A DNA stretch of 64,000 bases from Azolla caroliniana (Eukaryota; Plantae; Polypodiophyta): positions 18,414,001 through 18,478,000 of the forward strand of contig JBHGNT010000011.1 in assembly GCA_043228905.1 (NCBI GenBank), given 5' to 3'. Under the pieces are notes generated by a model. That model was not told where the DNA came from and ran no database searches. It saw only the letters and a program-made list of their open reading frames with translations. The position numbers and the translations under genes were made by a program. Below are positions 9,353 to 44,139 of the stretch, piece after piece (within the stretch, counting starts at the first letter, position 1; each line of letters starts with the position of its first letter).

Positions 9353-9362
9353 TGTCATGGTA

Positions 9363-9430
9363 TGGCTCCAAAAAGATTTGAACCCATGACCTCGTGTTAC
9401 GTAGGTTGAATCCTTACCATTAAACTATAC
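9363..9430 (-). promoter_or_regulatory. tRNA-like Pol III A-box/B-box cassette in the A LTR (also about 37327-37394)
   Basis: Minus strand TAGTTTAATGGTAAG...GAGGTCATGGGTTCAAATC with tRNA-gene spacing. Confidence 0.6.
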
Positions 9431-10772
9431 ATTGTAATATATAAAAGATTATTTTCATTTATTATTTCACTATAGGAAATTCATGTATATTCCAAATTAC
9501 TTTGGAACATTCTAGAAACTTTGGGAGTACTCCTGACAATACTATAAATAGAGGAACATGGCATTATTGAGAACCAATTCGGTTCAACGCCAGTCTTAAG
9601 CCTCCTAGCTGTTCTTGTATCCTTCTTCATATAATATACTTCTTATTGTCATCACTCACTCACTCACTCACTCACTCTCTTTCTCTTCTCCTCTCGTGAC
9701 TCTTACACACTCTTTCCCTTCTTAGTACTAATCCTCATTCTTCCGCTCTATCTTTAGTACTAATTTTCCTTGCCTCTAGTACTATCCTTGACAATTTGAA
9801 CCGAATTCCTCATCTTCTTATCCCTCCTTCCCTTCATACTAATCCGTTTATCCTTCCTTCCTCCAATACTAAATGGCAACTGTTCGCGCTCAAGAATACC
9901 AATCCGTTTTCTCATAGCTCCAGTGCTTAAAAGTAAAGTTTGTAGCACTAGAACAAGAAAATCAATGTTTGTTGGGGGATCTTCAACAAATTGCTCTAGA
10001 AAAACAACAACACGGGGAGTTGACGTTACACGTTGTCGTGAAGAAAACCGCCCACAAGAGGAATCGGAGGAACAAGGCGTGGGAAACGGCTCTACACACA
10101 CCCGCGCGCCAAGAAGTACCTAAGGACGAAGTAGGTACATACGAGGATCCTAGGTGGGTAGATTCGGTTGGTATGCAGTTAATGCCAAACGGCCTCTTGA
10201 CGGGCTATAAAAGGAAGAGGAAGACTAGAAGTGGTGGTATCTCGCGCGGAGAGGACGAAGTGCTGCCGAACCGATTTCGGAGCTTCTCTCTCACTCCTGC
10301 CTTCTCTGTCTTCTGCTCCATCGCGTACCTGTGCAGGTTTCAAGGAGGCTTGCGCTGTTCCGTGGAACGCCCCGAGCGCGTCCTGCAGCACCTCCGACCT
10401 GTTTTCCCTTTCTGTGCGTCGCAACATACAGGGGTCGGCATCTGTTCGCCGCCCTGTTCGTTTTCGTTAGTATCTATTTCGTGCCCCACCGTGGGTTGTA
10501 ATACTTTAGTCTGTTATTTTCTTGCATTCATAAGTACATATCTTTCGTTGTTGCGTCCATCTGCGTCGGCGTTTATTTGTGATCTCTGTTTGTTGGGCCG
10601 TGTCCCTATGCAATCTTCGGTTCTGTGTAATCGGGTCTCTCTCTCTTACTCCTCTCTCTCCTGCTCTTCGGTCCAAGACCCCCGTGGTCCCTCCTCCTTT
10701 CTGCACGCAAGGGCGTAGCAACCGCCACATCTTGGTGAACCCGACGTGAAAGAGGCGGCAGAAGAGTAGGAA

Positions 10773-12899
10773 ATGAAGGGGGCGGATCTTGCAGAGGCCA
10801 TGGCTTCGGCCGTGGATCGGATAGTAAGCGCGCGCGAGGGCACCGGCGCCCTCGATAGAGCTATTGAGGCGGTCGTCGGAACGATCGGTCGATTCACCGG
10901 AAAAGATGCCACGAAGTACCTGGCGTCCTACGGTGCGGAAATGTTAATGCGGGACATTCCGGAAGACAGGCGTCTTGCCGGTTTTCCCCGAGTGGCGATG
11001 CCGAGCATCCACGCGGAGGTGCTCGAGGTGCGGGCGGAGAGCCGTACCTGGGAGGAGTTCGAAGGTCGGCTCCTGGAAAAATACGGACTGGACGACGCGC
11101 TCCGGCTTTCGAAGCGAAGCTTCATGGAGTGGGTGGAGTCTCCCGGGAAAGGAAGGAATGCGTCGGCACTCCTCCGGGAGTTCGAGGAGAACTTCGCGCG
11201 CCTTTCGGCGCTTGACAGGATGGTCCTGGATACAAGCCGGGTCCTGCTGTTCGTCAAATCGGTTGACGAGAGGGATCGGAGTCACGTGGGCGCCCTGCTA
11301 GAAACCGAAGACGGGCTGACAGCCGACTGGGCGGCGGTCAAGAGAGCCTGCGGCCGTTTCGACAAACGGCGAGAATGGGAGGATGACAGAGCAACCGGGT
11401 CGGGCTCAGTCGCGGCGAGGATACTCGAGCCGGCGCAGCCGGTGCGAAGGGAAGAGACTCGGGAGTGGCTGGAATCCGGTTCAGCTCCGACCGGCGTGAT
11501 CAGAGGCACGACTGGAGGAGCTGCGTTGGAGGAACTGACGAGGGCGATAAAAGACCTCCAAATCGCACAAGCCCGCAGAGAAGGCGGAGGACCTGCTCGT
11601 GACCGACGGCCGGCGGCGGGGAACAGGTGCATGTGGTGCGACGGGGTCGGCCACATCCGAAAAGACTGCGGCGATTTCGCAGAGGCGCTGAAGAACCGGG
11701 TGGTATACCTATGGGAAGGCCGGGTTCACGCCAACGACACGAGAAGGGCCCTAAACCGAAACGACGGGCGAGGCGGAATGAAGAGGTTGATGGAAGAGGC
11801 GGCGGCCCGACATGCGGAAACCGTCCACTACTCGGCGTCGGCCGGTATTCGAGTCGGGGGCAACGAGGCCCGAAGAGGAAGCAAAGCCGGATTCTGGCCG
11901 ACGGTGCTGGAAGGCCTTGCCGATACGAGGATGAAGAGGGAGGAATCGGACCGTGCGGAGAAACGGGTACGGGAGATGACCGGGTGGAGCGACCCGGTCG
12001 AGGAAAAGACGGGCTTCGTGGAAGCCGCTTGCCGGAACTACGAGGCTCTGGTAGAAGAGAAGCGGGTGGGGAAACCCGGGACGACCGGGCCCTCACAACG
12101 ATACGAGACCCGGTCCGGGCCACGACGGGATGAAGCCGGCGGGGCCGGTACGCAAGATAAACCCCAGAAGGGCGGGTACCGTCTGGGGACGGAGATAGAA
12201 AGAACCACGGACTTACGAAAGGTCCTGGAGGAACGGATCCTCGACAGCAAGGTGGAGCTGTCGCTACGGGAGGTGCTGGGAATCGCCAAGAAGGAGTTCC
12301 ACGACTCCATCGTGGACTTGGTGAAACGGAAGAGGCTGTCAACGGAGACAGAACCGGAAAGACCGGTGGAAGTACGGACGACGCACCTAGACGACATGGC
12401 GCTGGGAGACGAGTGGGCGGAAAGCCACTATTCGAGACCGCACTGGGCCCGAGCGACCACGGAAACCCCGGTGAAGATCGGCGATGTCCAGGAACCGGTG
12501 ATAGCTTTGGTAGACCACGGATCGGAGATCAATTTGATGTCCATGGACTTCTATAAGAAGGGCAAATGGCCGATCAACACCAAGCACGGGTGGAAAATAA
12601 GGGCAGCAACGCGCGCCACCGAGGAACTGCACGGGGCCTGTCCGAATGTGCGAGTCAAGATCGGCGACGTCGAGATTGACCAGCACTTCTTCGTGCAGGA
12701 GACGTCCTCGCATCCGGTCATACTGGGAGAGCCGTACATCACGGCGGCGCGAATGGAGACCAAGGTGCTGGACAATGGTTCGGCCTATGCGCGGGTCAAG
12801 AGCCAGGACGGGCGCCATTCGGTCCAGTTTTTGACGGTTAGGCCGAACCACGAGCGTAACCGCGACTCCCTCGGTTCCGATAACCGAGAGGATTTTTAG
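10773..12899 (+). CDS. C1 Gag-protease (708 aa)
   Basis: CCHC knuckle CMWCDGVGHIRKDC; aspartic protease ALVDHGSEINLM...VILGEPY at the C-terminus. Confidence 0.93.
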   Translation: MKGADLAEAMASAVDRIVSAREGTGALDRAIEAVVGTIGRFTGKDATKYLASYGAEMLMRDIPEDRRLAGFPRVAMPSIHAEVLEVRAESRTWEEFEGRLLEKYGLDDALRLSKRSFMEWVESPGKGRNASALLREFEENFARLSALDRMVLDTSRVLLFVKSVDERDRSHVGALLETEDGLTADWAAVKRACGRFDKRREWEDDRATGSGSVAARILEPAQPVRREETREWLESGSAPTGVIRGTTGGAALEELTRAIKDLQIAQARREGGGPARDRRPAAGNRCMWCDGVGHIRKDCGDFAEALKNRVVYLWEGRVHANDTRRALNRNDGRGGMKRLMEEAAARHAETVHYSASAGIRVGGNEARRGSKAGFWPTVLEGLADTRMKREESDRAEKRVREMTGWSDPVEEKTGFVEAACRNYEALVEEKRVGKPGTTGPSQRYETRSGPRRDEAGGAGTQDKPQKGGYRLGTEIERTTDLRKVLEERILDSKVELSLREVLGIAKKEFHDSIVDLVKRKRLSTETEPERPVEVRTTHLDDMALGDEWAESHYSRPHWARATTETPVKIGDVQEPVIALVDHGSEINLMSMDFYKKGKWPINTKHGWKIRAATRATEELHGACPNVRVKIGDVEIDQHFFVQETSSHPVILGEPYITAARMETKVLDNGSAYARVKSQDGRHSVQFLTVRPNHERNRDSLGSDNREDF

Positions 12900-15800
12900 A
12901 GAGGGCTGCCAAGGCGTGGGGCCGCGACAGTCCGGACACCCCGGGAAAACCCCACACCTGTACGATAAAACCGAAGAAACCTTGTACCATAGGTAGGGAA
13001 TTTTTGTTCTCCGACAGCGGAGCGTGTACGATAGCCGGCATCGGCGGCCGAGAGAAGACAAAGGCGGAGGGGAGACTTCGAGCGTGCGGAGTTCTCGGCC
13101 CTGACGAGGAAATCAACGGAGCCGTGGAGGCGGTCTCATTCGACGACACCTTGGGAATGCTGGGAAAGGTAGTCGAAGAAGGCCTTAACGAAGACCGGAC
13201 GATACCGGTGTGTTCCGAGGAGATGTACGAAGTCATCGCGGACTTCGGTCGAGGGCTCGAGTCGGTTCGGACGGCCCACGTAAGCACCAAGTACAAGACT
13301 GTGGACCGGAAGGTAAGGCCAGTCGCGGCACCCTTACCGGAGGACAGCGCGTCGAGAATCAAAGGGGTTGCATCGGACCCTAGTCTACGAGATCCGGCCT
13401 GCATAGGACACACCTTCACCGACGAGACGCTCCGAGAGCTCAAAATCGGTGGGGGCGGGTCCCTACTGCCGGCGGAGGAAGACCGGTTTCGGAGAATGCT
13501 CGGAAGGCACGGGAAAGCCTTCGCATTCTCGCCGGAGGAAATCGGGTGCGTTGACCCGACGATCGTGGAGCCGATGGTGATATTCACGGTACCGCATGTA
13601 CCATGGAATCTCAAGCCAATCCCGGTTCCGAGAGCTCACATCCCGAAGTTGATGGAGCTGCTGAGGCAGAAAGTTGATATGGGAATTCTCGAGCCGTCGA
13701 GCGCCCCATATTCGAATCGATGGTTTACCGTACCAAAGAAAAACGGTTCGTTGCGCTTCATCCAGGACCTGCAGCCGGTCAATCGAGTGACCATTCGGAA
13801 CGCAGGGATCGGACCGACCATAGACGAGTTCGCGGAGGCCTTCGCCGGAAGGTCAATTTACTCGGTCGGGGATCTATACTCAGGGTACGACCAGTTCCAG
13901 CTAGCCGTGGAGAGCAGAGACATTACGACGATGCGAACTCCCCTCGGCCTAGTTCGGATGTGTACACTGCCGCAAGGAGGGACCAACTCGGTGGCCCACA
14001 TGGTGAATGCGATGAACAAGGTTCTGAGGGACTGTATCCCGGACATCACCATGCCGTTTCTGGACGACATCCCGATCAAGGGATGCCCGGTGGAAGAAAA
14101 GGACGAGACGATCGGGCCGGACGGATGCCGACGATTCGTGGCGACGCACATCGACGACTGCGAGAAGGTGCTGCAAAGGCTAGAGGATGCGAGACTCACC
14201 TTCTCCGGGGAGAAGTCGGCCTTCGGGCAGTCAGAAATCATGGTGGTCGGACACCTGTGCGGACCATATGGCCGGAAACCGTCTCCGGCAAAGGTAGAAG
14301 CCATCTCCGCGATGAAGCTCGACTGCAGCTCGGTCACGGAAGTACGGAGATTCCTGGGGGCATGCGCGTTCTACCACATATGGATCCCGCATTACGCACA
14401 CGTCGCGGAGCCACTGTACGGGTTGCTGAAAAAGGGGCGAAGGTTCGAATGGCTAGACGAGCACGCGGAATCGGTCCGGAAGCTGAAAGAGGCCCTTGCA
14501 GCGGCACCGGCACTCCGGAAGGCGGTATACGGGAAGGATACCCCGGTATTCATAACGGTGGATACCAGTCCGACCGGGATCGGATGGGTCGTGAACCAGG
14601 AAGACGAGGACGGCAATCGGTTTCCGATCCGATTCGGCGCGAAAGTCCTCAGTGAACGGCAGCAAGGATACGCCCAGGTTAAACGCGAACTCTGGGGTAT
14701 TGTTTCGGCGGTTAAGGCCGACAAAGACTACCTGATAGGGACAGAAGTGATCATCGAGACGGATTGCCTGCCGATTCTCGGTATGGTTTCCGGATGCGCG
14801 ACTCCGGATCTGGCGATGCTCAGGTGGATAGCGTACATCAAGTCCCTGGACCCGGAAATACGACACATTTCCGGGAAAGACAACGCCATGGCCGACATGC
14901 TTTCGAGGGCGAGGTTCGACGACGAGGGCGGCATGGTTTCGGAAGACGAAGAAGTCGGCGTGGATTTCTTCGAGGCGGCATACATAACGACCGACGGGAT
15001 GAGCACTCCGGCGCTTAATGAGTTCGACGCGAGCAAGTACGACGGGGAGTGGCTGCAGATCGGCGGGTTTTTGAAGACAATGACGCCCGATGCGTCATGG
15101 ACGAAGGACGAGGCCAACCGGATCCGGAAGAAAGCATATCGATTCTTTCTCCGAGATGGGCATTTGTGGAAGCACCCGAAGAAGAGGAACGGCGTCCCGC
15201 TCCGGGTGGTGGCGATGAAGGAAGAACAGGAGGAGCTACTGGCGGCCTACCACGACAGCCCTTGGGCTGGACACCGTGGAACGTGGGCGACATTTGAGAA
15301 GCTGAAGGGGAAGTACTGGTGGCCGGGATTGTACCAGGACGTGCATCGGTTCGTGACAACTTGCGAGAGCTGCCAGATGCACTCCATAGTCCGACATCGA
15401 GACGAGCTTCACCCTACGTACCCTCCGGCCATCCATTTCAAATGGATGGTGGATCTGGTGACGATGCCGATGGGGGTAGGACAGATGCGGTATCTGGTCC
15501 TAGCGCGGGAAGACCTGACGAACCAGGTGGAAGGCCGAGCCCTTCAGAACAAGACGACCGCGGCCGTGTGTCGGTTCCTGATCGAGGACGTGATATGCCG
15601 GTACGGGTGCGTCGGGAAGATCGTGGCTGACCGAGGGGAGTTGGACGCCGAGGAAGCCGCGGAGCTGTTCGATCGGCTGGGAGTCAAACTCTCGCTCACC
15701 ACTGCGTACAACCCGGAGGCGAATGGAAAGGTGGAGCGCGGACACGGGCCGATCGTTAAAGCGCTGGTTCGGGCATGCGGAGGCCAAGTCGGTAACTGGC

Positions 15801-16387
15801 CGCGACTTCTACCTTATGCTTTGTGGGCCGACCGGACTACGCACAGTTCGGTAACCGGGTACATGCCGACAGAGCTCATGTTCGGCCAGGGGCCGATCAT
15901 GCCGATGGAACGAACAATCTCCTCATGGGCAACGGTCGACTGGAGGGACGAGATGAGCCGGGAGGAGTTGTTGGCAGCGCGTATACGACAACTCGAACGG
16001 AGACCGGAGGACGTGGAGACGGCTGCAGAAAGGATCCGAGTGGCGAGGATAAAGAACAAAGCCAGGTTCGACCGAACGCACCGACTCCGACCGAAGAAGA
16101 TCGAACAAGGTGACTGGGTGCTCGTCTACGACAGCAGCCTCGACAACCAGCACCGAGCAACGCGGAAGTTCGCACGGAGATGGTTCGGGCCGTACACGGT
16201 ACAAAGCGCCAACGACAACGGGACGTATCATCTGGCGGAACTCGACGGTACGAGAATAGCGATACCCGTGGCCGGGAAGAGGATCAAAGCTTTCAAGAAG
16301 CGGCACGACGACGAACCCGACCTGATTCTCCTGGACAGCAGCGACGACCGATCCGAGGCCGAGGAAGGGCCGGCAGGCGAAGAGTAA
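12896..16387 (+). CDS. C1 Pol (RT, RNase H, integrase), entered by predicted -1 frameshift; ORF track start 13004
   Basis: DLYSGYDQF, LPQGGTNS, PFLDDI; TVDTSPTGIGW; HDSPWAGH...CESC; AYNPEANGKVERGH; WFGPY. The -1 frame is open from 12896. Confidence 0.93.
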   Translation, partial: LERAAKAWGRDSPDTPGKPHTCTIKPKKPCTIGREFLFSDSGACTIAGIGGREKTKAEGRLRACGVLGPDEEINGAVEAVSFDDTLGMLGKVVEEGLNEDRTIPVCSEEMYEVIADFGRGLESVRTAHVSTKYKTVDRKVRPVAAPLPEDSASRIKGVASDPSLRDPACIGHTFTDETLRELKIGGGGSLLPAEEDRFRRMLGRHGKAFAFSPEEIGCVDPTIVEPMVIFTVPHVPWNLKPIPVPRAHIPKLMELLRQKVDMGILEPSSAPYSNRWFTVPKKNGSLRFIQDLQPVNRVTIRNAGIGPTIDEFAEAFAGRSIYSVGDLYSGYDQFQLAVESRDITTMRTPLGLVRMCTLPQGGTNSVAHMVNAMNKVLRDCIPDITMPFLDDIPIKGCPVEEKDETIGPDGCRRFVATHIDDCEKVLQRLEDARLTFSGEKSAFGQSEIMVVGHLCGPYGRKPSPAKVEAISAMKLDCSSVTEVRRFLGACAFYHIWIPHYAHVAEPLYGLLKKGRRFEWLDEHAESVRKLKEALAAAPALRKAVYGKDTPVFITVDTSPTGIGWVVNQEDEDGNRFPIRFGAKVLSERQQGYAQVKRELWGIVSAVKADKDYLIGTEVIIETDCLPILGMVSGCATPDLAMLRWIAYIKSLDPEIRHISGKDNAMADMLSRARFDDEGGMVSEDEEVGVDFFEAAYITTDGMSTPALNEFDASKYDGEWLQIGGFLKTMTPDASWTKDEANRIRKKAYRFFLRDGHLWKHPKKRNGVPLRVVAMKEEQEELLAAYHDSPWAGHRGTWATFEKLKGKYWWPGLYQDVHRFVTTCESCQMHSIVRHRDELHPTYPPAIHFKWMVDLVTMPMGVGQMRYLVLAREDLTNQVEGRALQNKTTAAVCRFLIEDVICRYGCVGKIVADRGELDAEEAAELFDRLGVKLSLTTAYNPEANGKVERGHGPIVKALVRACGGQVGNWPRLLPYALWADRTTHSSVTGYMPTELMFGQGPIMPMERTISSWATVDWRDEMSREELLAARIRQLERRPEDVETAAERIRVARIKNKARFDRTHRLRPKKIEQGDWVLVYDSSLDNQHRATRKFARRWFGPYTVQSANDNGTYHLAELDGTRIAIPVAGKRIKAFKKRHDDEPDLILLDSSDDRSEAEEGPAGEE

Positions 16388-17161
16388 AGGCGGGCCGGTT
16401 TTCTCCGTGCCAACTTAATTTGGCGCATGCCGGTGGATGCGCGGTTAGGTGGGGGCGGATGTCGTGAAGAAAACCGCCCACAAGAGGAATCGGAGGAACA
16501 AGGCGTGGGAAACGGCTCTACACACACCCGCACGCCAAGAAGTACCTAAGGACGAAGTAGGTACATACGAGGATCCTAGGTGGGTAGATTCGGTTGGTAT
16601 GCAGTTAATGCCAAACGGCCTCTTGACGGGCTATAAAAGGAAGAGGAAGACTAGAAGTGGTGGTATCTCGCGCGGAGAGGTCGAAGTGCTGCCAAACCGA
16701 TTTCGGAGCTTCTCTCTCACTCCTGCCTTCTCTGTCTTCTGCTCCATCGCGTACCTGTGCAGGTTTCGAGGAGGCTTGCGCTGTTCCGTGGAACGCCCCG
16801 AGCGCGTCCTGCAGCACCTCCGACCTGTTTTCCCTTTCTGTGCGTCGCAACATACAGGGGTCGGCATCTGTTCGCCGCCCTGTTCGTTTTCGTTAGTATC
16901 TATTTCGTGCCCCACCGTGGGTTGTAATACTTTAGTCTGTTATTTTCTTGCATTCATAAGTACATATCTTTCGTTGTTGCGTCCATCTGCGTCGGCGTTT
17001 ATTTGTGATCTCTGTTTGTTGGGCCGTGTCCCTATGCAATCCTCGGTTCTGTGTAATCGGGTCTCTCTCTCTTACTCCTCTCTCTCCTGCTCTTCGGTCC
17101 AAGACCCCCGTGGTCCCTCCTCCTTTCTGCACGCAAGGGCGTAGCAACCCCCACAACGTGC

Positions 17162-17761
17162 AACAACTTGAACCAACTGTTGTGTCATTGCAACAATAGG
17201 GACCAAGCATTGAAGGGACCCCCAAAGAACCCAAGATCGGTCTTCTTATGAAGTTCGATGGAATGCAATCATAGTTTAGAGGATTTCTTAATCATGTAAG
17301 TTTGGTGATTCAAATGCATCCTTCTTGATATCCCACTGATGCATCACGAGTCGGACTAGTAGGCACGCTACTTAGTGGAACAACTTTGGCATGGTTCGCC
17401 CCTTTGTTAGAAAAAAGCTCTCATTTGTTAAATAATTTTGAGGAGTTTATCAGTGAGTTTAAACAACTTGAACCAACTATTGTGTCATTGCAACAACAGG
17501 GACCAAGCACTGAAGGGACCCCCAAAGAACCCAAGATCAGTCTTCTTATGAAGTTTGATGGAATGCAATCATAGTTTAGAGGATTTCTTAATCATGTAAG
17601 TTTGGTGATTCAAATGCATCCTTCTCGATATCCCACCAATGCATCACGAGTGGGACTAGTAGGCACGCTACTTAGTGGCACAACTTTGGCATGGTTCACC
17701 CTTGTGTTAGAAAAAGGCTCTCCTTTGTTAAATAATTTTGAGGAGTTTATTAGTGAGTTTA
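17162..17761 (+). repeat. 300-bp tandem duplication inside element A gag
   Basis: AACAACTTGAACCAACT...AGTGAGTTTA repeats with period 300 and scattered substitutions. Confidence 0.9.
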
Positions 17762-18299
17762 AAGCATGTTTTGGAGATACCGATAGCATTAGGACAACAA
17801 TCAACAAAATCCGAAGATTGCGTTGTCGTGAAGATTTTCGGCAATAGTGTGAAAATCCCATAAAACGTACGAAATCGAGTATGAATCACATAGTACAATA
17901 ATTGTGAAGATAACATTTTAAATAGATTTAATATCTAAGTACAAAATGATGGAGGTTTCGAATGCACTTTATTACACGAGAAACGGACAACTAAATGTCA
18001 AGATATGAGGGTATAAAGTTTGTGAAAGGAAAAGAGAAAATTGTGAGATATCCCACATAGGTACGACATATACAACTCTCATCATATATAAGGTGGAGCA
18101 AAAGATATTATCTTTGTGTCTATGTGTGGAGCATAGAGAGTTCAAGGTAACTTGAATTAAGAATGGAGGTGGGATAACTACTCGTAAAGGGTTTTGGCCA
18201 ACCAAAACCGGACCGACGATGGAGCCGGTGATCCGACGGCAATCCGGTGATGGTATCCGGCGAACCGGCGTCCGACGACTAGATAATACAAGGAGGGCA

Positions 18300-18361
18300 A
18301 GTAAGGATTCAAACCTTGCACCTCCAAGTTAGGAGTCAATTGGCTTACCATTAAGCCATGC
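18300..18361 (-). promoter_or_regulatory. tRNA-like Pol III A-box/B-box cassette in the D LTR (also about 25609-25670)
   Basis: Minus strand TGGCTTAATGGTAAGC...GAGGTGCAAGGTTTGAATCCTT. Confidence 0.6.
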
Positions 18362-18883
18362 TATTTAGTTGAAATTATATTTCTATCATTGTACTTTTAC
18401 ATGTAAATTCTCATACATGAGAGCTAAAATGAGTGACATGGTTATCATGCACCACATGTAAAACATAAGCGCCAAATGGCAAACATGCAATGTATGCATG
18501 TCTTGTACCCTCACATGCATCATATGCATAAGAGCATCTATAAAAGAGGGAAGGGGGAGGAGAAAAAACACGGTTTTTTTTTATTATGAAATTAAGAAGA
18601 AGAAATTCGTTATCAAATTGATGGTGTAACTTGTTTCTTAAATCCAAAGATAAAAAGTTCAATCGATCTTTCTCAATCGTTTAATCTCAACTTCTCTCTT
18701 TCCCAATCTATCTTAAGTACTTTCTCACCAAAGCTTGTATCGACTCTAAATCCTTCTGGTTCAGAACCCCGGCGGTTCCGCCTCACGATCCGCGCGTAGT
18801 GACGGATCTTCACGACATAATTAAGTGGTGAACCCGACGTGAAAGAGGCGGTAGGAAGGATCAAGTCGAGATTAATACTTGGA

Positions 18884-20169
18884 GATGGCGTCCTCAAGCA
18901 ACCAAGCAGGAGAGATCGAAAGGATGATGCTAATTGTCGAGCAAATGATGAGATCTCGGGACAACGAAGCGAGCGTGGAGAAGGCTGTCGATCGTGTCGT
19001 AGAGCTCGAGGGCCAATTCGATGGAAGGAACGTTACGAAGTTCCTTGATGCATATAGAAGGGAGATGAATCAGAGGGACGTGTCCGAGGCACGTCAAATC
19101 GTAAGCTTCAAGAGAGTTGTCGCCAACAACATCCAAAGACGCGTCATCGAGCTTCAAGAAGGTAAGACAACATGGTCCGAGTTCGAGAAAACGATACTAG
19201 CGGAGTTCGTGACTGAAGACTCAACGAGGATGACTCGACATGCCTTGATGAAGTGGATAGAGAAGAAGAATAAGAAGATGAGCGTCTCGAGGGTGTACGA
19301 CGAATTCGACCATATGTTTAGTCGTCTCCCCAATACGGACCAAGTGTTGCTTGAAGAGGACAAGACTTTGTACTTCTTGAAGGCCGTGGACATAAAGGAT
19401 AGACGGGAGTTGGGGACTCTTCTCGAAGATGATACCCAAGCAAATGGGCTCGTAGTGGACTGGATCGTGGTGAAGCGGGCATGCAATAGGCTCGACAAGC
19501 GTCGCCAATGGGTTGATGACACTGACTTGACAGCATCAACTACCACGGAGAAAGCAAGACCGCCGAAAGTAGCTGAGCCGCCAAGACAAAGTAACGTGGA
19601 AGAAAAGAAGATTGATGACGACATCATTGAAGAGCTAGCGAAGAAGTTCGAGAAGGTCACGCTAGCCAACATGAATCGTCGGGGGCCTAAAGGAAAAGAA
19701 CCCTTTAGATGCGTGTGGTGCGATAGCATGGACCACATGAGAAGGGATTGTGCGAGCCTTCGAGAGGCGATTCGACAAAATATCGTATACATAGAGGACA
19801 ACATGATCTGCTCAAGCGAGACTAGAAGACCTTTTGAGCAGCAAGCTCAACCGGAGCCGGATCGGCTGAATAAGCCAGAGCCGGTAAGCGAGACGGATCG
19901 GGCGAAACGGATCGGTATGACGGTGAGCAACCGAACCGGCAAGTAGTGGAGGCCGGGTGCAATCCGTAACCGGAAGTCCAATTGGATGCCTAGTATAGGA
20001 TAGACTACTAGGTAGCTATAGTCTCGTAGTAAGTGTCAGATGATCGTGTGAGCATTGAAGTACATGGTACTTCTGTCAGTCCCAAGAGGACTTGTATAAA
20101 TAGTGCTACTTAGCACAGTGTGTATACAGTGTCTTGACATAATTTTGAAATTGTGTTCTGCTCTCTCTG

Positions 20170-20200
<31 letters not shown>

Positions 20201-33900: not shown

Positions 33901-34418
33901 CAGAGCTCATGTTCGGCCAGGGGCCGATCATGCCGATGGAACGAACAATCTCCTCATGGGCAACGGTCGACTGGAGGGACGAGATGAGCCGGGAGGAGTT
34001 GTTGGCAGCGCGTATACGACAACTCGAACGGAGACCGGAGGACGTGGAGACGGCTGCAGAAAGGATCCGAGTGGCGAGGATAAAGAACAAAGCCAGGTTC
34101 GACCGAACGCACCGACTCCGACCGAAGAAGATCGAACAAGGTGACTGGGTGCTCGTCTACGACAGCAGCCTCGACAACCAGCACCGAGCAACGCGGAAGT
34201 TCGCACGGAGATGGTTCGGGCCGTACACGGTACAAAGCGCCAACGACAACGGGACGTATCATCTGGCGGAACTCGACGGTACGAGAATAGCGATACCCGT
34301 GGCTGGGAAGAGGATCAAAGCTTTCAAGAAGCGGCACGACGACGAACCCGACCTGATTCTCCTGGACAGCAGCGACGACCGATCCGAGGCCGAGGAAGGG
34401 CCGGCAGGCGAAGAGTAA
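30927..34418 (+). CDS. C2 Pol (RT, RNase H, integrase), predicted -1 frameshift; ORF track start 31035
   Basis: Translation matches C1 Pol. Confidence 0.93.
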   Translation, partial: LERAAKAWGRDSPDTPGKPHTCTIKPKKPCTIGREFLFSDSGACTIAGIGGREKTKAEGRLRACGVLGPDEEINGAVEAVSFDDTLGMLGKVVEEGLNEDRTIPVCSEEMYEVIADFGRGLESVRTAHVSTKYKTVDRKVRPVAAPLPEDSASRIKGVASDPSLRDPACIGHTFTDETLRELKIGGGGSLLPAEEDRFRRMLGRHGKAFAFSPEEIGCVDPTIVEPMVIFTVPHVPWNLKPIPVPRAHIPKLMELLRQKVDMGILEPSSAPYSNRWFTVPKKNGSLRFIQDLQPVNRVTIRNAGIGPTIDEFAEAFAGRSIYSVGDLYSGYDQFQLAVESRDITTMRTPLGLVRMCTLPQGGTNSVAHMVNAMNKVLRDCIPDITMPFLDDIPIKGCPVEEKDETIGPDGCRRFVATHIDDCEKVLQRLEDARLTFSGEKSAFGQSEIMVVGHLCGPYGRKPSPAKVEAISAMKLDCSSVTEVRRFLGACAFYHIWIPHYAHVAEPLYGLLKKGRRFEWLDEHAESVRKLKEALAAAPALRKAVYGKDTPVFITVDTSPTGIGWVVNQEDEDGNRFPIRFGAKVLSERQQGYAQVKRELWGIVSAVKADKDYLIGTEVIIETDCLPILGMVSGCATPDLAMLRWIAYIKSLDPEIRHISGKDNAMADMLSRARFDDEGGMVSEDEEVGVDFFEAAYITTDGMSTPALNEFDASKYDGEWLQIGGFLKTMTPDASWTKDEANRIRKKAYRFFLRDGHLWKHPKKRNGVPLRVVAMKEEQEELLAAYHDSPWAGHRGTWATFEKLKGKYWWPGLYQDVHRFVTTCESCQMHSIVRHRDELHPTYPPAIHFKWMVDLVTMPMGVGQMRYLVLAREDLTNQVEGRALQNKTTAAVCRFLIEDVICRYGCVGKIVADRGELDAEEAAELFDRLGVKLSLTTAYNPEANGKVERGHGPIVKALVRACGGQVGNWPRLLPYALWADRTTHSSVTGYMPTELMFGQGPIMPMERTISSWATVDWRDEMSREELLAARIRQLERRPEDVETAAERIRVARIKNKARFDRTHRLRPKKIEQGDWVLVYDSSLDNQHRATRKFARRWFGPYTVQSANDNGTYHLAELDGTRIAIPVAGKRIKAFKKRHDDEPDLILLDSSDDRSEAEEGPAGEE

Positions 34419-35186
34419 AGGCGGGCCGGTTTTCTCCGTGCCAACTTAATTTGGCGCATGCCGGTGGATGCGCGGTTAGGTGGGGGCGGATGTCGTGAAG
34501 AAAACCGCCCACAAGAGGAATCGGAGGAACAAGGCGTGGGAAACGGCTCTACACACACCCGCGCGCCAAGAAGTACCTAAGGACGAAGTAGGTACATACG
34601 AGGATCCTAGGTGGGTAGATTCGGTTGGTATGCAGTTAATGCCAAACGGCCTCTTGACGGGCTATAAAAGGAAGAGAAAGACTAGAAGTGGTGGTATCTC
34701 GCGCGGAGAGGACGAAGTGCTGCCGAACCGATTTCGGAGCTTCTCTCTCACTCCTGCCTTCTCTGTCTTCTGCTCCATCGCGTACCTGTGCAGGTTTCGA
34801 GGAGGCTTGCGCTGTTCCGTGGAACGCCCCGAGCGCGTCCTGCAGCACCTCCGACCTGTTTTCCCTTTCTGTGCGTCGCAACATACAGGGGTCGGCATCT
34901 GTTCGCCGCCCTGTTCGTTTTCGTTAGTATCTATTTCGTGCCCCACCGTGGGTTGTAATACTTTAGTCTGTTATTTTCTTGCATTCATAAGTACATATCT
35001 TTCGTTGTTGCGTCCATCTGCGTCGGCGTTTATTTGTGATCTCTGTTTGTTGGGCCGTGTCCCTATGCAATCTTCGGTTCTGTGTAATCGGGTCTCTCTC
35101 TCTTACTCCTCTCTCTCCTGCTCTTCGGTCCAAGACCCCCGTGGTCCCTCCTCCTTTCTGCACGCAAGGGCGTAGCAACCCCCACA

Positions 35187-37275
35187 ACGTTCATTGTGAG
35201 ATGTGTAATGCTTTTTAGGTTTCACAAATTTCTATCGCAAGTTTATAAAGGACTATTCACATCTTATTTTGCCTCTCACATAGCTTACAAAGAAGGGGCA
35301 ATCGTTTGTTTGGTCTAAGGAAGCGGACACGTCTTTTGTGGATCTCAAGAAAGCATTTACATCAGCCCCTATTCTAACTTGACATGTTGATCCGCAAAAA
35401 CCATTTATCATTGAGGCAGACACGTCGGATTTCGCGCTCGGTAGTATTTTGTCACAGCAAGGCGATGATGAGAAGCTACATCTCATAGTTTTCCACTCAC
35501 GCAAATTTGACACCGCCGAAATCAACTACGAGATATATGATAAGGAGCTATTAGCAATAGTGGACTCTTGTGCAGAATGGAGGCATTTCTTAGAAAGATC
35601 TCCTCATCAAGCCATTGTATTTAGTGATCACAAGAATCTTGCCTACTTCCAGAATGCTCGTGTATTAAATAGAAGACAAGCTCGGTGGCCCCAGTTCCTC
35701 ACTCGTTTCGCCTTCAAGATTACATACCGTTCGGGCAAGTAATCATAGGTCCGACACGACTACAAGCAACATTGGTTTTTAACACTCCATTAGATTCCTG
35801 CCTTAATTGATACCATACACGAAGATTTGAAGACAAATGTTTGCGCTCAAGCTATTCTAGATCAAATTGATTCCTCTCATGCATCCTGTTCACGGTCACA
35901 ACAACAAGGTACGGATTATCAACAATTAGCATTTCATGATGGATTACTCTTCTTTAAGAAACTTTTGTATGTTCGCAATGGTTCATGTCGTCTTCGAGTA
36001 GTTCAAAATTGTCATGACACATACATAGTTGGACATTTTGGTAGTACTGAAACGTTGGATTTAGTACAACGATCATTTTGATGGTCGCATATGCGAAGAT
36101 TTGTCAAAGACTATTTGTGGACATGTGATACATGTTGTAGAGTGAAGATGCCCAGACATCATCCATATGGTTTATTGGAGCCATTGCCCATTCCCAGCAA
36201 GCCGTGGCAATCTATTTCTCTAGTTTTTATCACAAATCTTCTGGATTCGAAGGGCTTCAACGTGATATTTATAGTGGTCGATCGGTACACTAAGATGGCA
36301 CATTTCTTGCCCTGTACTAAAGAAATCACTAGTGAAGATACTTCAGGAATTGTTATGTGAAGTATTTCGGAATCATGGTCTTTCTGATAGTATCATTAGT
36401 GATCATGGACAACAATTCGTCTCTAAATTTTGGAAGCATCTCTTCAAAATGCTCAAGGTCACATGCAACCTCTCCTCCGGATATCATCCCCAAACAGATG
36501 GTCAAGTAGAATGTACAAATCAAACGTTGGAACAATATCTTCGGTGTTTTTTAAGCTATCAACAATATGATTGGGCAAATATTCTACATTTTGTTGAGTT
36601 TGCTTATAGTAATTCTATCCACTCCTCCACTAGGGTTACTGTAACACTATTCTATGCTTATACAAGCCATCATCCTCATTGGTGTGTATTAGAAACTCCT
36701 GAGTTACCCACAAATCCTCGTGTAGAGAATCATTTGGAGCGGCTACGCAAGATTTAGGCAGAACTATCTACCCACCTATATCAAGGCCAACAAACATAGA
36801 AGCATTATGCGGATCGTCACCGGATTCCATCCTATTTTGATATTGGAGATTGAGTATGGGTATTACAACGGCACGTAAAAACTACTCGACCATGTGACAA
36901 ATTGGATTATCGACGGTTAGGGCCTTTTCGTATTAACAGAAAAATTAATGATGTCACTTTTTGCCTTGATCTACCTCCGCAACTACGGATACATCCAGTA
37001 TTTCATAGTTCTCTTCCAAAACCCTATCAAGACAACACTATTCCCAATCGTATTACACCACCTCCACCCCTGATTGAACTTGAAAATGGACCTGAGTACA
37101 AGGTTGCTGTCATCCTCGATTCCAAGATTGTTCGCAACAAGCTCTACTATTTGGTCGATTGGCTAGTCTATAGTCCAAGCGAGCGTACTTGGGAACCAAT
37201 AGAGAATGTGGCCAATGCTTGAGCTCTTCTTAAAGACTTCCAACATCAATATCTAGTTAAACCAGGTTCTCAATG
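35187..37275 (+). pseudogene. Element A RNase H, integrase and chromodomain (disrupted)
   Basis: IEADTSDFALG, NYEIYDKELLAIV, YHPQTDGQVE, RLGPFRI, EYKVAVILDSK...YYLVDW...TWEP. Confidence 0.88.
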
Positions 37276-37771
37276 AACGACGACTCGTAACACTCATCGT
37301 TTAAAGAGGGGGATAATGTCATGATATGGCTCCAAAAGGATTTGAACCCATAACATCGTGTTACATAGGTTGAACCCTTACCATTAAACTATGCATTGTA
37401 ATACAAAAAATATTATTTTCATTTATTATTTCACTATAGGAAATTCATGTGTAATCCAAATTACTCTGGAACATTCTAGAAACTTTAGGAGTACTCCTGA
37501 CATTACTATAAATAGAGGCACATGGCATTATTGAGAACCAATTCCATTCAACGCCAGTCTTAAACCTCCTAGTTGTTCTTGTATCCTTCTTCATATAATA
37601 TACTTCTTGTTGTCATCACTCTCTCTCTCTCTCTCCATTCTCTGTCTCCCCCCTTTCTCTTCTCCTCTCGTGACTCTCACACACTCTTAAATTCCCTTCT
37701 TAGTACTAATCCTCATTCTTCCCCTCTATCTTTAGTACTAATTCTCCTTGCCTCTAGTACTATCCCTGATA

Positions 37772-38352: not shown

Positions 38353-38958
38353 TGTCGTGAAGAATTTCGGCCAGAGGCGGAAACCGGGAACATTGGCTAC
38401 ATCGGCGGGGTGCAGTGGATGAACGCACCCATGTACATTTAGTGTGAATATCGAGGGCGCCTTTATGGCGCCGAAGAGTAGTCAAGTTGGGGCAGACGAT
38501 CCCATGTAAGGCGGGATTTGTCCCACATTGTAACGCATCCCTTTCCTTGTTCTATAAAAGGAAGGGAACGCCCTTTGTGAAAGCGTTGCCCATTTTGCAT
38601 TAGAGGGTATACCGTTAGGTTTAGAGTTAGTTTCTTCTTCTTCTCCCCCCTTCGTGTTCGCTTAGGGTTTGCTGCAGCTCATCTCCTGTGCAAGATCCCG
38701 CTCGGTGCGACGGGCCCGAGAGCTCCCCGACGGCGGCTTGACAGCAGATGACTGTTGTGAGCTATCTTGGTCCGGCTCGAAGCCGGGAATGTATTCTTCT
38801 TTTATATATATATATATACGTTTGCGTCTATCTGTGTATATTCGCGTCCATGTTGGTGTCGGGTGTTTCCCCTTTTCCTGCGTTTCCTGTACATAAGGGC
38901 GTGAGTAGGGTCGGCATGTGTGTGTGTGTGTGCGTGTGTGTGCGTGAGTCGGTGTTAA

Positions 38959-38999
<41 letters not shown>

Positions 39000-41900
39000 T
39001 CGGTTGCTTCTGGGATGCCCCGGAAACGGTGAAGCATGACTTCCTACGCTCCGTCACTCCCTGGTCCAAGACCCCCGTGGTCCCGCCTTTCTCCACGCAC
39101 GCGCATAACAACGCAACATATTTGGTGAACCCGACGTGAAAGGCGGCAAGGGAGGATGGAGTCGGAAGACGACGACCTTGCAGAGATGGTGGCCGAAGTG
39201 GTGTTGGAGTCGGCACGAGTGGTGATGAGGCGAGAAGCAGCGCATCAAGCGGTTGAGCGAGTGGTCGAAAGAGTCGGCCATTTCAACGGGGACAAAGTCC
39301 CATCTTACTTGGAAGCCTACAACGCGGAAATGGAGGAGCGTGGCGTAGACGAGGCGTTGAGGCTGGAGTTCTTCTGCCGGGTCGTAGCTGTCCGGATGCA
39401 TGCGGAAGTAAAGGAGCTCCGTGAGGCTCATAGTTCGTGGGAGGCCTTCGAAGAGGCGCTCCTGAAGGCATAGGGAGGACGACGGAAGAGCCGGGGACGG
39501 CACGACTTCGACCAGTGGGTAGCATCGGCAAAGACCCACCGGGGCGCGACGAAGGCATTCCGAGAGTTCGAGCGACAGCTTGCTCAGCTCTCAGAGCGGG
39601 AACAAGGTTTGGTGGGGGCGGACAAGGTCCTATTGTTCGTCAGGTCGATCGACCGAGCGGACGGGAGGCCATCGGGATTGAGCTCGAAGACGATGACGGA
39701 GCGAATGGGCTTACGGAGGACTGGTTGAAGGTCGGAAGGGTGTGCAAACGGCTAGACAAAGAGCGAGCCGAGAAGGCTAAGAGGAAGGGACGCGACGGCG
39801 TGCCATCACAGCGGGAAGAGGCCGAACGACAAAGGGAGTTGGCAAGGATCGGCGTTGGGGCTAGGATTGCGGAGGCGTACGCAGCTCTCGAGGCGATGCT
39901 CGAGGAAGAGGAAAGATCAAGGCCGCAAGTCGAGACTGAGAAGACGGACTTGCCCCACGCAACGGCGGAAGATCGGTACCACGGTACCACGGGAGAGGGT
40001 GCGGAACGAAACGCCCTCTCGACTTGCGGAGATAAAACGGCCAAGGAAGAGGCCGAGATACTGATCGCGGAACCGGAACGTTGGGACCAGCGGTTTCGGG
40101 CGTGTCAGCCCGAGATCCCGGTCATTGGGGAAGCAAGCCTAGATGGGGCTTGCGCGATCGGTAAGAAGACGACCGCCGACCATGAAGAGTCTGTGGCTAC
40201 GGACAAGGGCGTAAAACGGACGGGCGATTCTTTGTGTCTTCCCACACTTGCTCCCGAGACGATGGCAGTTGGGCTCGAGTGCCCACGTGAGTCCCAAGCG
40301 GAGGACGGCGGCGAAAGGCCAAGAATCACCGGCGAGACGATACGAGGAAGGAGCGGACGAAAGCCCACGGACTCGATTCCAGAGAACTCGGCATTCGGGC
40401 CCGTATGGCCATGTAAGACCGAGGAGATGGATGGCGGTACCGAGGAGTCTTGGCACGATGCCAGCGAAGTCGGATGGGAAACGGCCTGCGAGGAGGCCGA
40501 GGACGGAAGCGGCACGAGGAGATCGGCATTCCGATACGGGTGGAGCATAATCCGGTCGTGGATCGTTCGATCGGGGCCGGATTCGGCATGAAAGTGCCGA
40601 AACGGAAGAGGGTGCGGGACGAGCCGCCCTCTTTTACATGGGGAGAAAGACCGACCAGGAGAAGGTCGAGATTTGGAAAGAGAATGAAAGCAGGTCCTAT
40701 GGGGATTCCTTACACCGAATCGGCTGCAGGCCCGAGTGCCGGCGTGAGTCCGACAAGAGAGATCGGTGACGACAGGAGAACGGGACTCGGCAATCCGGAG
40801 AAAAACGAACGAACCCGAGCGAGAACCGGGCGGAGCGGACTCCCGGATGACCATTCCGGGAGGGAGGAAGAGAGCAGGCCTACGAAGAGGCCGAGGACAC
40901 GGTACGACGGTACCACGGGAGAGGGTGCGGAGTAAACCGCCCTCTCGGCATGCGGAAAGGGACGACCCGGGACAGGGTCGGGGAGACAAATCGGAGGCCT
41001 ACGGAGGATCCTTCACACCGGTTCTAGAGACTTCGGCAGTCGGCAACGCGGTCGACGTAAGACCAAGATACTGACGGTGGCGGCGAGGTGACGAAGGCAA
41101 GGGCTACGGATGGGCGGTCTACGGAGGATCCTTCACACCGGTTCTACAGAATTCAGCAGTCGGCAACGCGGTTGACGTAAGACCAAGATACTGACGGTGG
41201 CGGCAAGGTGACGAATGCAATGGGCGTAAGGAAGTCCGGTCCTACGGGATCCCCCCACTGGTTCCGGAGACCCCGACTGTTTTGCCAACGTGGCAACGTA
41301 AGACCGAGGGAGAAGGAAGGTGGCGGCGGGAAACGGGACCCGGCTATGCGGAAGACACGAGGAGAGTCCGGGAGTGACTCAAAACAAAGGCTCCCAAATT
41401 ACGGCAAGCATAGAAACGGAGTCTGGTCCTATGGGACCCTCACACCGATCCGGCGACTCCGGCAGTTCGGCCAACGTGGCAACATGAGACCGAGAGAGAA
41501 GGTTGGTGGCGGCAGGGAACGGGACCCGACGACACGAGGTTTCGGAAGGAGCCGGTAGGGACAAACACGGGGAGGTGTGTCAGGCCGGAAGGGCACGCCT
41601 GGAACAGAACAAGAGTCTCGCAAATGGCCATCGCGGGCCGGATCGAAGCGTGACTACGAGACGGTGTTCGGCGCGGGCGGGGCCGAACGAAGGAAGCGGA
41701 AGACGGCACAAGGGAGGTGCCGGGAACGAGGTGACAAGTGCCTAGTGGACTACACCGAGTCGGGGTCAGGGGATGGCAAGAGAGACCGGAGGAGGATCCT
41801 CCACACTCGCTTCGTAGATCTCGGTAGCTCCGTCGAAGTAGCGAAGACTGACACGGCAAGCCGGGGTGACAAGCTGGTGGGGGCGAGGGGACGACGGCAA

Positions 41901-43378
41901 ACGGAAGACTCAGGACCTGTTGCAGTAGCACGAAGACGGGAAGGGCCATGCAGGCTACTACGAGGTGTTCCTCGGATGCAAAGGACACCAGTATGCGGGG
42001 AGCGACGATGCACGATCTGGCCGGAAAAGGGGCCGACAAGGCGTGCAATGAACCGAAGTGCGACACAGGCAGTACCAAACAACGGACGAGGGTATGTGGC
42101 ACACGGAGGTGCCAGAGCGGAAAGTCGAGCGCGGAGATAGGTTGCACGGTTCAGAGGTATCCTCCACACCGTTCCGGAGACCATGGCGGTTTGAGCCGAC
42201 GCGGCGATGTAAGACCATGGAGAAGGAAGGTGGCGGCGAGAGGACGAGGGCAACGCGAAACGACATGGGAAGGCAATCAGGACGACGCGATTGATCAACG
42301 GAGGCCAAGCGGGCCATTACGGGCATGCCTCGAGCGGAGGACATCGGGCCTACGGCGGGAAGCGAGGCGTTCATACGGCCGAACAAGGGCCAACGGAAGT
42401 ACGCGTACTATGGAGATCGCGGCAGAGGACCCATTGACGGGTCGAACGAGCCTACGGGGAGGCGAGCGCGAAGGAAGACTCGAAGCCGACGGATCAAACC
42501 GGCAGCGAGCCGAGATGCGGATCACGGGAGACCGGTTTCTCACCGGCCGAAATCTCTCACCCTTCAACCGGACTTGGCACATACCGGTGGATGTGCGGTT
42601 AGGTGGGGGCGGATGTCGTGAAGAATTTCGGCCAGAGGCGGAAACCGGGAACATTGGCTACATCGGCGGGGTGCAGTGGATGAACGCACCCATGTACATT
42701 TAGTGTGAATATCAAGGGCGCCTTTATGGCGCCGAAGAGTAGTCAAGTCGGGGCAGATGATCCCATGTAAGGCGGGATTTGTCCCAAATTGTAACGCATC
42801 CCTTTCCTTGTTCTATAAAAGGAAGGGAACGCCCTTTGTGAAAGCATTGCCCATTTTGCATTAGAGGGTATACCGTTAGGTTTAGAGTTAGTTTCCTCTT
42901 CTTCTCCCCCCTTCGTGTTCGCTTAGGGTTTGCTGCAACTCATCTCCTGTGCAAGACCCCGCTCAGCGCGACGGGACCGAGAGCTCCCCGACGGTGGCTT
43001 GACAGCAGACGACTGTTGTGAGCTATCTTGGTCCGGCTCGAAGCCGGGAATGTATTCTTCTTTTATATATATATATATACGTTTGCGTCTATCTGTGTAT
43101 ATTCGCGTCCATGTTGGTGTCGGGTGTTTCCCCTTTTCCTGCGTTTCCTGTACATAAGGGCGTGAGTAGGGTCGACATGTGTGTGTGTGTGCGTGTGTGT
43201 GCGTGAGTCAGTGTTAAGCGCGCGCTCTCTCTCTCTCTCTCTCTCCCTTCGGTTGCTTCCGGTGTGCTTCTGGGATGCCCCGGAAACGGTAAAGCACGAC
43301 TTCATACGCTCCGTCACTCCCTGGTCCAAGACCCCCGTGGTCCCGACTTTCTCCACGCACGCGCGTAACAACGCGACA
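38353..43378 (+). mobile_element. Element E: non-autonomous LTR element of the C/D group
   Basis: LTRs 38353-39118 and 42614-43378 starting TGTCGTGAAGA; tRNA-Trp PBS 39123-39140; TSD ACGT at 38349-38352 and 43379-43382; broken Gag N-terminus from 39156; no recognisable PR or RT. Confidence 0.92.
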
Positions 43379-43978
43379 ACGTCGGTGAACCGATGTCATA
43401 CGAAGAAGCATCAACATCAGTCGATTCAACCACATGGCATCTGGTGATGGAGTCAAAGATGAACTCCATTCGGCGAAACAAGACTTGGGACTTGGTCGAC
43501 TTATTGAAAAATCAACGTGCTCTTCCGTGTAAGTGGGTCTATAGAATCAAGGAGACGTTTGATTCGGCCAAGCCAAAATTCAAGGCCAGACTAGTAACAA
43601 AGGGTTTTCGACAATAATATGGTGTCGATTTCGACGAAATCTTTTCACCAGTGGTGAAAATGACCTAGAGGAGTTGATTCAGCTAGATGTAAAAACGACG
43701 TTCCTCCATGGTGACCTAGAGGAGGAAATCTATATGGAGCAGCCTAAAGGTTTTGTGGTATCTGGTCAGGAACATCTAGTCTACCGCCTCAAGAAGAGTC
43801 TAATAACGGCCTGAAGCAGGCACCGAGGCAATGGTACAAGAAGTTCGACGACTTCATCCAATCAATTAACTTCTCAAAGAGCGATGAGGACCATTGTCTC
43901 ATCACCAAAACAACTCAAGATGGGTCACCCATCTTCCTAATCAATTACATGGAAGACATGCTACTCTTAGGCTGGCAC
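43379..43978 (+). pseudogene. Copia pol fragment 3: reverse transcriptase N-terminal part
   Basis: NKTWDLVDL, ALPCKWVYRIK, FKARLVTKGF, QLDVKTTFLHGDLEEEIYMEQP, GLKQAPRQWY. Confidence 0.9.
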
Positions 43979-44003
43979 TGTCATGAAGAACACATGACCA
44001 TTA

Positions 44004-44071: not shown

Positions 44072-44139
44072 TTATTGTTATATAAAACAATAAAAGCTAC
44101 TTCTTGTATTACATTGATTATTGTAAAAACTCTAGATTA

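What the first reader, a model, noticed from the sequence alone, without database searches (positions are those of the whole stretch)
10030..43382. tRNA-Trp-primed gypsy group inserts at CpG-centred RCGT sites
Seen: all four complete insertions of this group have a 4-bp TSD with a central CG: C1 ACGT, D GCGT, C2 ACGT, E ACGT. They come from three families with largely different LTRs and sit in four unrelated flanks, inside older AT-rich TEs where CpG is scarce. The copia, chromoviruses and solo LTR here have unrelated 5-bp TSDs. Known: most plant LTR elements make 5-bp TSDs with weak sequence bias, while sequence-specific 4-bp TSDs are known from insect errantiviruses such as ZAM and Tirant (CGCG-type). 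Inference: a sequence-specific, possibly methyl-CpG-favouring integrase steers these chromodomain-less elements into existing TEs. Caveat: n=4 and the motif was defined after the fact.
Basis: partly seen in the sequence, partly recalled or inferred. Interest (0 to 1): 0.82.

Follow-up and report, generated by a model that had tools for sequence, protein, structure and literature searches.

The report
Phygy retrotransposons inserting at CG sites
These plant jumping genes almost always land on a four-letter site with CG in the middle, a habit already published for the moss 'Phygy' group they likely belong to; here it appears in what is likely a fern, with a sharper motif that likely reflects the element's own integrase reading the DNA letters rather than the methyl mark alone.

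Summary
Observation real, largely known. All four insertions have the stated 4-bp TSDs. The CG rule holds out of sample: 45 of 49 LTR start junctions from public contigs have a central CG, against 3.7% background and 6 of 55 control hits. Three of the four exceptions are CG transitions. The motif is VCGB (44 of 49, ACGT commonest), not RCGT (20 of 49). Neumann et al. 2019 already list the Physcomitrella Phygy clade as 4-bp TSD 100%, NCGN, tRNA-Trp 81%, no extra domain, and Phygy-in-Tcn1 nesting is published. The elements lack a chromodomain and aRH, and P. patens proteins match their Gag-protease at 68-69%, so they are likely Phygy; the reference tree could not be run. New here: a likely fern host, an intact Gag-PR / -1 RT-RH-IN layout, avoidance of TCG and CGA, and 0 TA-centred sites. 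That last result argues against a methyl-only readout and fits a foamy-virus-type VYRB intasome narrowed to CG. A methyl-CpG boost remains untested. Three of the four 'unrelated flanks' lie in one chromovirus copy.

The parts
10034..17155 (+). Element C1, intact Phygy-like Ty3/gypsy; 696-bp LTRs (10034-10729, 16460-17155), TSD ACGT/ACGT
   Evidence: LTRs differ at 6 of 696 positions
10733..10750 (+). PBS of C1, 3 nt after the LTR (tRNA-Trp type; that identity is recalled); same motif in D, C2 and E after spacers of 3-8 nt
   Evidence: weak Rfam RSV_PBS match 10687-10761, E 1.1, below gathering score
10770..12899 (+). C1 ORF1: Gag with DUF4100, protease at the C-terminus
   Evidence: Pfam PF13352; residues 552-701 align at 69% to the protease region of P. 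patens P0362
12884..16387 (+). C1 ORF2 in the -1 frame: RT, RNase H, H2C2 finger, DDE integrase, SH3-like tail; no chromodomain, no aRH
   Evidence: model matches PFV and Ty3 intasomes
17824..26126 (+). Element D, second Phygy-like family; LTRs 994 and 1070 bp with a 12-bp terminal inverted repeat; TSD GCGT/GCGT; pol carries two in-frame stops
   Evidence: pol 69% identical to C1 over 722 aa
28065..35186 (+). Element C2, same family as C1 (10 differences in 7122 bp) at a different site; TSD ACGT/ACGT
38353..43378 (+). Element E, non-autonomous relative (only an N-terminal Gag fragment); TSD ACGT/ACGT
50749..51933 (+). Old D-like LTR remnant in the copia 3' region; left 4-mer TTGG; right end and TSD not found
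9353..37771 (+). Host chromovirus X (Tcn1-like: chromodomain, no Met PBS); 5-bp TSD GCGGA/GTGGA; contains C1, D and C2
7696..52423 (+). Outer copia element (Met PBS, 5-bp TSD CCTTT/CCTTC); contains X, E, F and the 50749 remnant
43979..49776 (+). Chromovirus F, 5-bp TSD GGCAC/GGCAC, with chromodomain (control)

Best explanation
These are chromodomain-less Ty3/gypsy retrotransposons, likely of the Phygy clade and likely in a fern, that insert at 4-bp VCGB sites, likely because their own integrase reads the target sequence directly. Inferred mechanism: a PFV/Ty3-type intasome cuts with a 4-bp stagger, which needs a sharp kink at a central pyrimidine-purine step and disfavours T at the first and A at the last position (the VYRB rule of 4-bp retroviruses). 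This lineage narrows YR to CG, probably through base contacts. Candidate contacts are the conserved 18-residue C-terminal beta1-beta2 loop ([NH]QH...[RK]KF, at the place of PFV Arg329) and an acidic residue three after the second catalytic Asp (at or next to PFV Ala188). Methylation is probably tolerated but not required. The few CA/TG junctions are likely CpGs deaminated before or after insertion. Nesting in older elements likely follows from TE abundance and selection.
For: TSDs. Out of sample: 45 of 49 left junctions NCGN (background 3.7%, binomial p 1e-59) against 6 of 55 non-LTR pattern hits (Fisher p 6e-18); stable across thresholds (36 of 39 at the strictest). Right ends: 7 of 8 NCGN. 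SRA contig loose ends at the LTR start give majority flanks ending ACGT (10 contigs, run X4) and ACGG (5 contigs, run X16, another study). Outer bases: T first 0 of 45 and A last 1 of 45, although TCGA is the commonest background NCGN (p about 2e-8 and 4e-8); this matches PFV VYRB and the T0/A+3 avoidance of 4-bp retroviruses (PMC4422553 passages). Centres observed CG 45, CA 2, TG 1, TA 0, against availability 214, 460, 424 and 438. Phygy features. P. patens homologues: 20 of 120 listed; 10 of 10 tested hit C Gag and none hit chromovirus F. Integrase: acidic residue in 109 of 109 close relatives; loop 18 aa in 83 of 83 parsed; [NH]QH 70 of 83.
Against: No labelled Phygy reference could be aligned, so clade membership is indirect. 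C (7122 bp) is below the published Phygy size range (7656-9968). The 49 junctions are one-sided; of three contigs showing both ends only L075 has matching TSDs (L073 and L078 do not). 41 of 49 come from two assemblies of an unnamed host, likely the same or a close species, and the scan stopped after 9 of 64 parts. The residue assignments rest on alignment only; a one-residue gap makes the Ala188 equivalent ambiguous, and acidic residues at that site abolished RSV strand transfer (PMC4005685). Nothing here measures methylation.
Confidence: 0.68

Rival explanations
1. The integrase reads CG and strongly prefers it methylated, so insertions are steered into silenced TE DNA.
For: All four window copies sit in older TEs, and 20 of the junction flanks hit TE proteins of the window by tblastx. 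Three exceptions are CpG transitions, so these sites were probably methylated at some time. A PNAS 1992 paper on CpG methylation and retroviral integration in vitro exists (reference listing only; text not held).
Against: TA carries 5-methyl groups at the same two places as methylated CG, yet it is used 0 times against twice the availability, so methyl alone is not the signal. Flank CpG o/e spans 0.12-1.92 (46 flanks) with no sign of selection for old, depleted DNA. Methylation after insertion explains the transitions equally well.
Confidence: 0.22
2. A host factor (methyl-CpG or H3K9me reader) tethers the intasome to heterochromatin, and CG appears because such regions are favoured.
For: Tethering is common for Ty1, Ty3, Ty5 and chromoviruses (PMC5408687 passage). 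Phygy is reported enriched at liverwort centromeres (PMC12885004 passage).
Against: A tether sets the region, not the exact centre of a 4-bp cut. The motif is base-exact and symmetric (first vs complement of last position p 0.18), and positions -5 to -14 show no comparable signal.
Confidence: 0.06
3. The pattern is a small-sample or ascertainment artefact.
For: Only n=4 in the window, two of them from one family, and the motif was defined after the fact.
Against: The search pattern held no flank bases and LTR membership was called on downstream sequence only; 45 of 49 against 6 of 55 controls; the same rule is published for 186 moss elements.
Confidence: 0.01

Closest known systems
Phygy clade, non-chromovirus Ty3/gypsy of Physcomitrium patens (Neumann et al. 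2019, PMC6317226)
   Same: 4-bp TSD with NCGN, Trp-type PBS, no chromodomain, aRH or extra ORF, compact internal region, nesting in Tcn1-like chromoviruses (PMC6911290), homologous Gag-protease
   Different: Host likely a fern (Phygy was described as specific to P. patens); intact copies show Gag-PR and RT-RH-IN in overlapping frames (listed ND in the paper); motif refined to VCGB; C family shorter than the published range
TatI clade (OTA superclade)
   Same: 4-bp TSD 100% and tRNA-Trp 75%
   Different: TatI carries an aRH domain in 100% of elements, not found here; no NCGN preference listed
Prototype foamy virus intasome (4-bp TSD, VYRB consensus; PMC4422553, PMC4005685)
   Same: 4-bp stagger, central YR step, T/A avoided at the outer TSD positions; best structural match of the integrase model
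   Different: PFV preference is weak and accepts any YR; here the centre is CG in 45 of 49; about 21% sequence identity; a retrovirus
Drosophila errantiviruses, ZAM subgroup (TATA, CGCG, ATAT targets; PMC5408687)
   Same: Strong palindromic 4-bp target specificity in a gypsy element
   Different: The CGCG site has a central GC step, here it is CG; no env ORF here; no sign of close relationship
Fungal DUF4100-Gag gypsy elements (Phenoliferia, Zalerion proteins)
   Same: DUF4100 Gag; 38-39% identity over RT-RH; the plant clade falls among them in a FastTree tree
   Different: Their target sites are unknown to me; they mostly lack the 18-residue loop motif and the acidic residue

Membership tests
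Phygy | Clusters with REXdb Phygy in an RT-RH-INT tree (the paper's primary criterion) | not testable with these tools
   The reference FASTA supplement is not among the 5 files held. Indirect: P. patens proteins match C Gag-PR at 68-69% in the protease and do not hit chromovirus F
Phygy | 4-bp TSD | tested here: met
   4 of 4 in the window; solo LTR L075
Phygy | NCGN target motif | tested here: met
   4 of 4 and 45 of 49
Phygy | tRNA-Trp PBS | tested here: inconclusive
   PBS present in all four; Trp identity is recalled; only a sub-threshold RSV_PBS match; no tRNA found in 31 of 31 pattern loci
Phygy | No chromodomain | tested here: met
   Pfam Chromo absent from the C and D tails, present in X and F
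Phygy | No aRH or extra ORF; coding region fills the interior | tested here: met
Phygy | Size 7656-9968 bp (descriptive; the paper calls size insignificant for classification) | tested here: inconclusive
   D 8303 is in range; C 7122 and non-autonomous E 5026 are below
TatI | aRH domain | tested here: not met
   Single RNase H followed by a short linker and the H2C2 finger
Tcn1 and other chromoviruses | Chromodomain; 5-bp TSD | tested here: not met
   RT-RH only about 25-31% identical to chromovirus F
Selgy | tRNA-Ala PBS, about 5 kb | tested here: inconclusive
   Autonomous copies are 7.1-8.3 kb; PBS read as Trp from recall; no Selgy reference aligned
Errantivirus (ZAM, Tirant) | env ORF; CGCG target | tested here: not met
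   No ORF between integrase and PPT; CGCG in 0 of 49 junctions

The most novel reading that the evidence does not exclude
Phygy is a fungal-derived gypsy lineage whose integrase evolved a methyl-CpG-reading loop on entering land plants, and has kept it from mosses to ferns. It would then reach silenced DNA without a chromodomain or host tether: an integrase that reads an epigenetic mark directly.
Probability: 0.15. Interest if true: 0.75.

Novelty: new member of a known kind. Interest (0 to 1): 0.3.

Why it matters
Phygy is the one plant LTR lineage reported with real target-sequence specificity. In the library searched, the NCGN motif appears in one relevant paper and no mechanism was found. 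This window adds a likely fern host, two intact recent copies, a sharper motif and named candidate residues, which makes the mechanism testable in vitro. If methylation did raise integration, it would be a direct route into silenced DNA. As it stands the headline observation is published.

Tried and rejected
No genome is held for the window, so a genome-wide logo was not possible. Viral-contig scans found no relatives. The genome-contig scan gave 4 short coding-only loci without LTRs. The first read-laying run was cut and did not show LTR-edge loose ends; the second showed them for 2 of 4 runs, with 86 rows hidden. The tRNA behind the PBS was not found. A single-sequence fold failed (pLDDT 37). 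Flank CpG o/e did not separate the methylation hypotheses. The global LTR identities between families are gap-inflated and were not used. RCGT as the motif was rejected (20 of 49). TatI, Tcn1 and errantivirus membership were rejected. The Cryptococcus paper PMC12810828 gave no methyl-targeting precedent (passages). Searches for DUF4100 (0 papers), Phygy with fern (3 papers; the two checked by passage show no fern Phygy) and fern methylomes gave nothing useful. Cluster look-ups named only 6 of 20 distant relatives by organism, so a fungal donor is not shown. Earlier findings of this scan held nothing on this motif.

Full report
Structure. The region is one nest. A copia element (7696-52423) holds chromovirus X (9353-37771), element E (38353-43378), chromovirus F (43979-49776) and a D-like LTR remnant at 50749. 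X in turn holds C1 (near its gag start), D (in gag) and C2 (in RNase H). The four TSDs are as stated: ACGT, GCGT, ACGT, ACGT, identical on both sides. The controls have 5-bp TSDs: CCTTT/CCTTC, GGCAC/GGCAC and GCGGA/GTGGA. The 'four unrelated flanks' are four different sites in two host elements. These hosts are only mildly CpG-poor (NCGN 2.6% and 4.3%, o/e 0.67 and 0.84) and richer than the DNA outside the nest (o/e about 0.5). I could not confirm a solo LTR with a 5-bp TSD. The remnant at 50749 belongs to the group under study, has left 4-mer TTGG and has no matching right end.

Test out of sample. No genome was held. I scanned metagenome contigs for the LTR start with a pattern that held no flank bases; the scan stopped at 121 loci, 9 of 64 parts. 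LTR membership was called by single linkage on downstream sequence only: 66 members (17 preceded by the PPT and set aside as 3' LTRs, 49 left junctions) and 55 non-members. The 49 junction 4-mers were ACGT 15, ACGG 9, ACGC 7, GCGT 5, CCGT 4, GCGC 2, CCGG, GCGG and ACGA 1 each (45 NCGN), then ACAT, CCAT, GTGT (CG transitions) and TTTT (L059, at the score threshold and from an unrelated record). Background NCGN in the same flanks is 3.7%. Non-members show 6 of 55, two of them likely true LTRs with too little downstream sequence to pass. No two flanks were alike, so the sites are distinct. The result is stable to threshold (45 of 49 down to 36 of 39), but 41 of the 49 come from two assemblies, likely of the same or a close host. 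Right ends picked by end motif were NCGN in 7 of 8. Of three contigs with both ends, only L075 had matching TSDs, so most junction 4-mers are inferred TSDs. SRA contigs clipped at the LTR start gave majority flanks ending ACGT (10 contigs, X4) and ACGG (5 contigs, X16). The rows for the other two runs were hidden, and X4 may be the window's own sample.

Motif. RCGT fits 20 of 49 and VCGB 44 of 49. T at the first position was seen 0 of 45 times and A at the last 1 of 45, although TCGA is the commonest NCGN in the background (63 of 488). First and last positions are compatible with symmetry. Among V..B contexts the centres available are CG 214, CA 460, TG 424, TA 438; the centres used are 45, 2, 1 and 0.

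Identity. C carries Gag (DUF4100) with the protease in ORF1, and RT, RNase H and integrase in an overlapping -1 frame. It has no chromodomain (present in X and F) and no aRH. Neumann et al. 2019 (PMC6317226; passages and supplementary file 3 read) state that only Phygy elements prefer a sequence, NCGN, and list 186 elements with 4-bp TSD 100%, tRNA-Trp 81% and no extra domain. PMC6911290 (passages, section 6) reports Phygy inserted in Tcn1 as the commonest repeated nest in P. patens, and CG-rich centres for 4-bp TSDs. TatI shares the 4-bp TSD and Trp primer but has aRH. P. patens proteins make up 20 of the 120 listed Gag-PR homologues; the 10 I compared all match C and none match F. Riccia pol is 65% identical and an Adiantum fragment 55%. 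The reference sequences were not among the supplements held, so the defining tree is untested. The Trp identity of the PBS is recalled, with only a sub-threshold Rfam RSV_PBS match. The neighbouring SUVH gene has its best named hits in ferns, so the host is likely a fern. Searches for Phygy with fern gave 3 papers, and the two checked by passage show no fern Phygy. That is weak evidence of novelty, since lineage tables in supplements were not read.

Mechanism. Shown: the target motif, the domain content, and an integrase model (pLDDT 83, 54 sequences) whose best matches are the PFV and Ty3 intasomes. From the literature (PMC4422553, PMC4005685; passages): PFV cuts 4 bp apart with a sharp bend at a central YR step, has consensus VYRB, and contacts target bases through Ala188 and through Arg329 in the C-terminal beta1-beta2 loop; 4-bp retroviruses avoid T first and A last. 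VCGB is that rule with YR narrowed to CG. Inferred: the narrowing comes from base contacts. The matching loop is 18 residues in 83 of 83 parsed close relatives (95 examined), with [NH]QH in 70 and [RK]KF in 78, against 1 and 0 of 31 parsed distant ones (65 examined). The residue three after the second Asp is acidic in 109 of 109 close relatives and aligns to PFV Ala188 beside a one-residue gap. These are candidates only. On methylation: thymine carries a methyl at the same position as 5-methylcytosine (established chemistry), so a methyl-plus-kink readout should accept TA, and none was seen. CG must therefore be read as bases. Whether methylation adds affinity cannot be told from sequence, and flank CpG content was uninformative. 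The only precedent I found was seen as a reference title (text not held).

Wider relations. Beyond the plant clade, RT-RH identity drops to about 35-45%. Named members of that tier are fungal: Phenoliferia twice and Zalerion. The Gag's nearest other Atlas clusters are mostly Basidiomycota. In a FastTree tree of 96 of 157 eligible sequences, rooted on chromovirus F, the plant clade (support 0.99-1.00) nests among them. Few tips are labelled, no Athila/Tat reference was included and no one-clade test was run, so a fungal origin is a lead. Neumann et al. call this relationship unclear.

Verdict. A real and strong pattern, already published for Phygy; these are new members, likely in a fern. The refined motif, the intact organisation and the candidate residues are modest additions that make the untested mechanism approachable. 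Other papers seen: PMC5408687, PMC3276498, PMC7466625, PMC12885004, PMC12810828, PMC8282616 and PMC13469084 (passages only); PMC13477047 (listing only). Interest 0.30.

Noticed in passing
window 10034-17155 vs 28065-35186: C1's two LTRs differ at 6 sites, yet C1 and C2 differ at only 3 sites in 5.7 kb of interior. C1's LTRs were probably unequal at insertion or converted later, so LTR dating would overestimate its age.
   Followed up: partly
window 17162-17763: A 300-bp tandem duplication (95% identical) in the gag of chromovirus X starts just after C1's right junction.
   Followed up: no
window 12861-12910: The protease sits at the end of ORF1 and RT-RH-IN starts in the -1 frame with a 16-nt overlap; Neumann lists this organisation as ND for Phygy.
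   Followed up: partly
window 10770-16387: Nearest named non-plant relatives are fungal (Phenoliferia, Zalerion; Basidiomycota DUF4100 Gag clusters), and the plant clade nests among them in a FastTree tree. A possible fungal origin; labelled Athila/Tat references were missing.
   Followed up: partly
window 10034-17155, 38353-43378: C and E are 58% GC with CpG o/e 1.1-1.2, in a window that is about 38-40% GC with o/e 0.5 outside the nest. At least 5 of 49 junction flanks (L026, L056, L063, L112, L113) are themselves Phygy-like.
   Followed up: partly
window 50749-51933: A D-like LTR remnant in the copia 3' region, with an internal 200-bp duplication (51144-51342 / 51388-51586) and no right end.
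   Followed up: partly
window 4008-5963: Open SUVH-type SRA/pre-SET/SET reading frame 1.7 kb from the 45-kb nest; best named hits are ferns at about 50%.
   Followed up: partly
L122-L125: Phygy-like pol (46-58% identity) on short contigs of bacterial assemblies, likely plant contamination.
   Followed up: no
window 9991-17156 (runs X1 and X11): Contigs join across C1, showing copies of the host element without this insertion.
   Followed up: no
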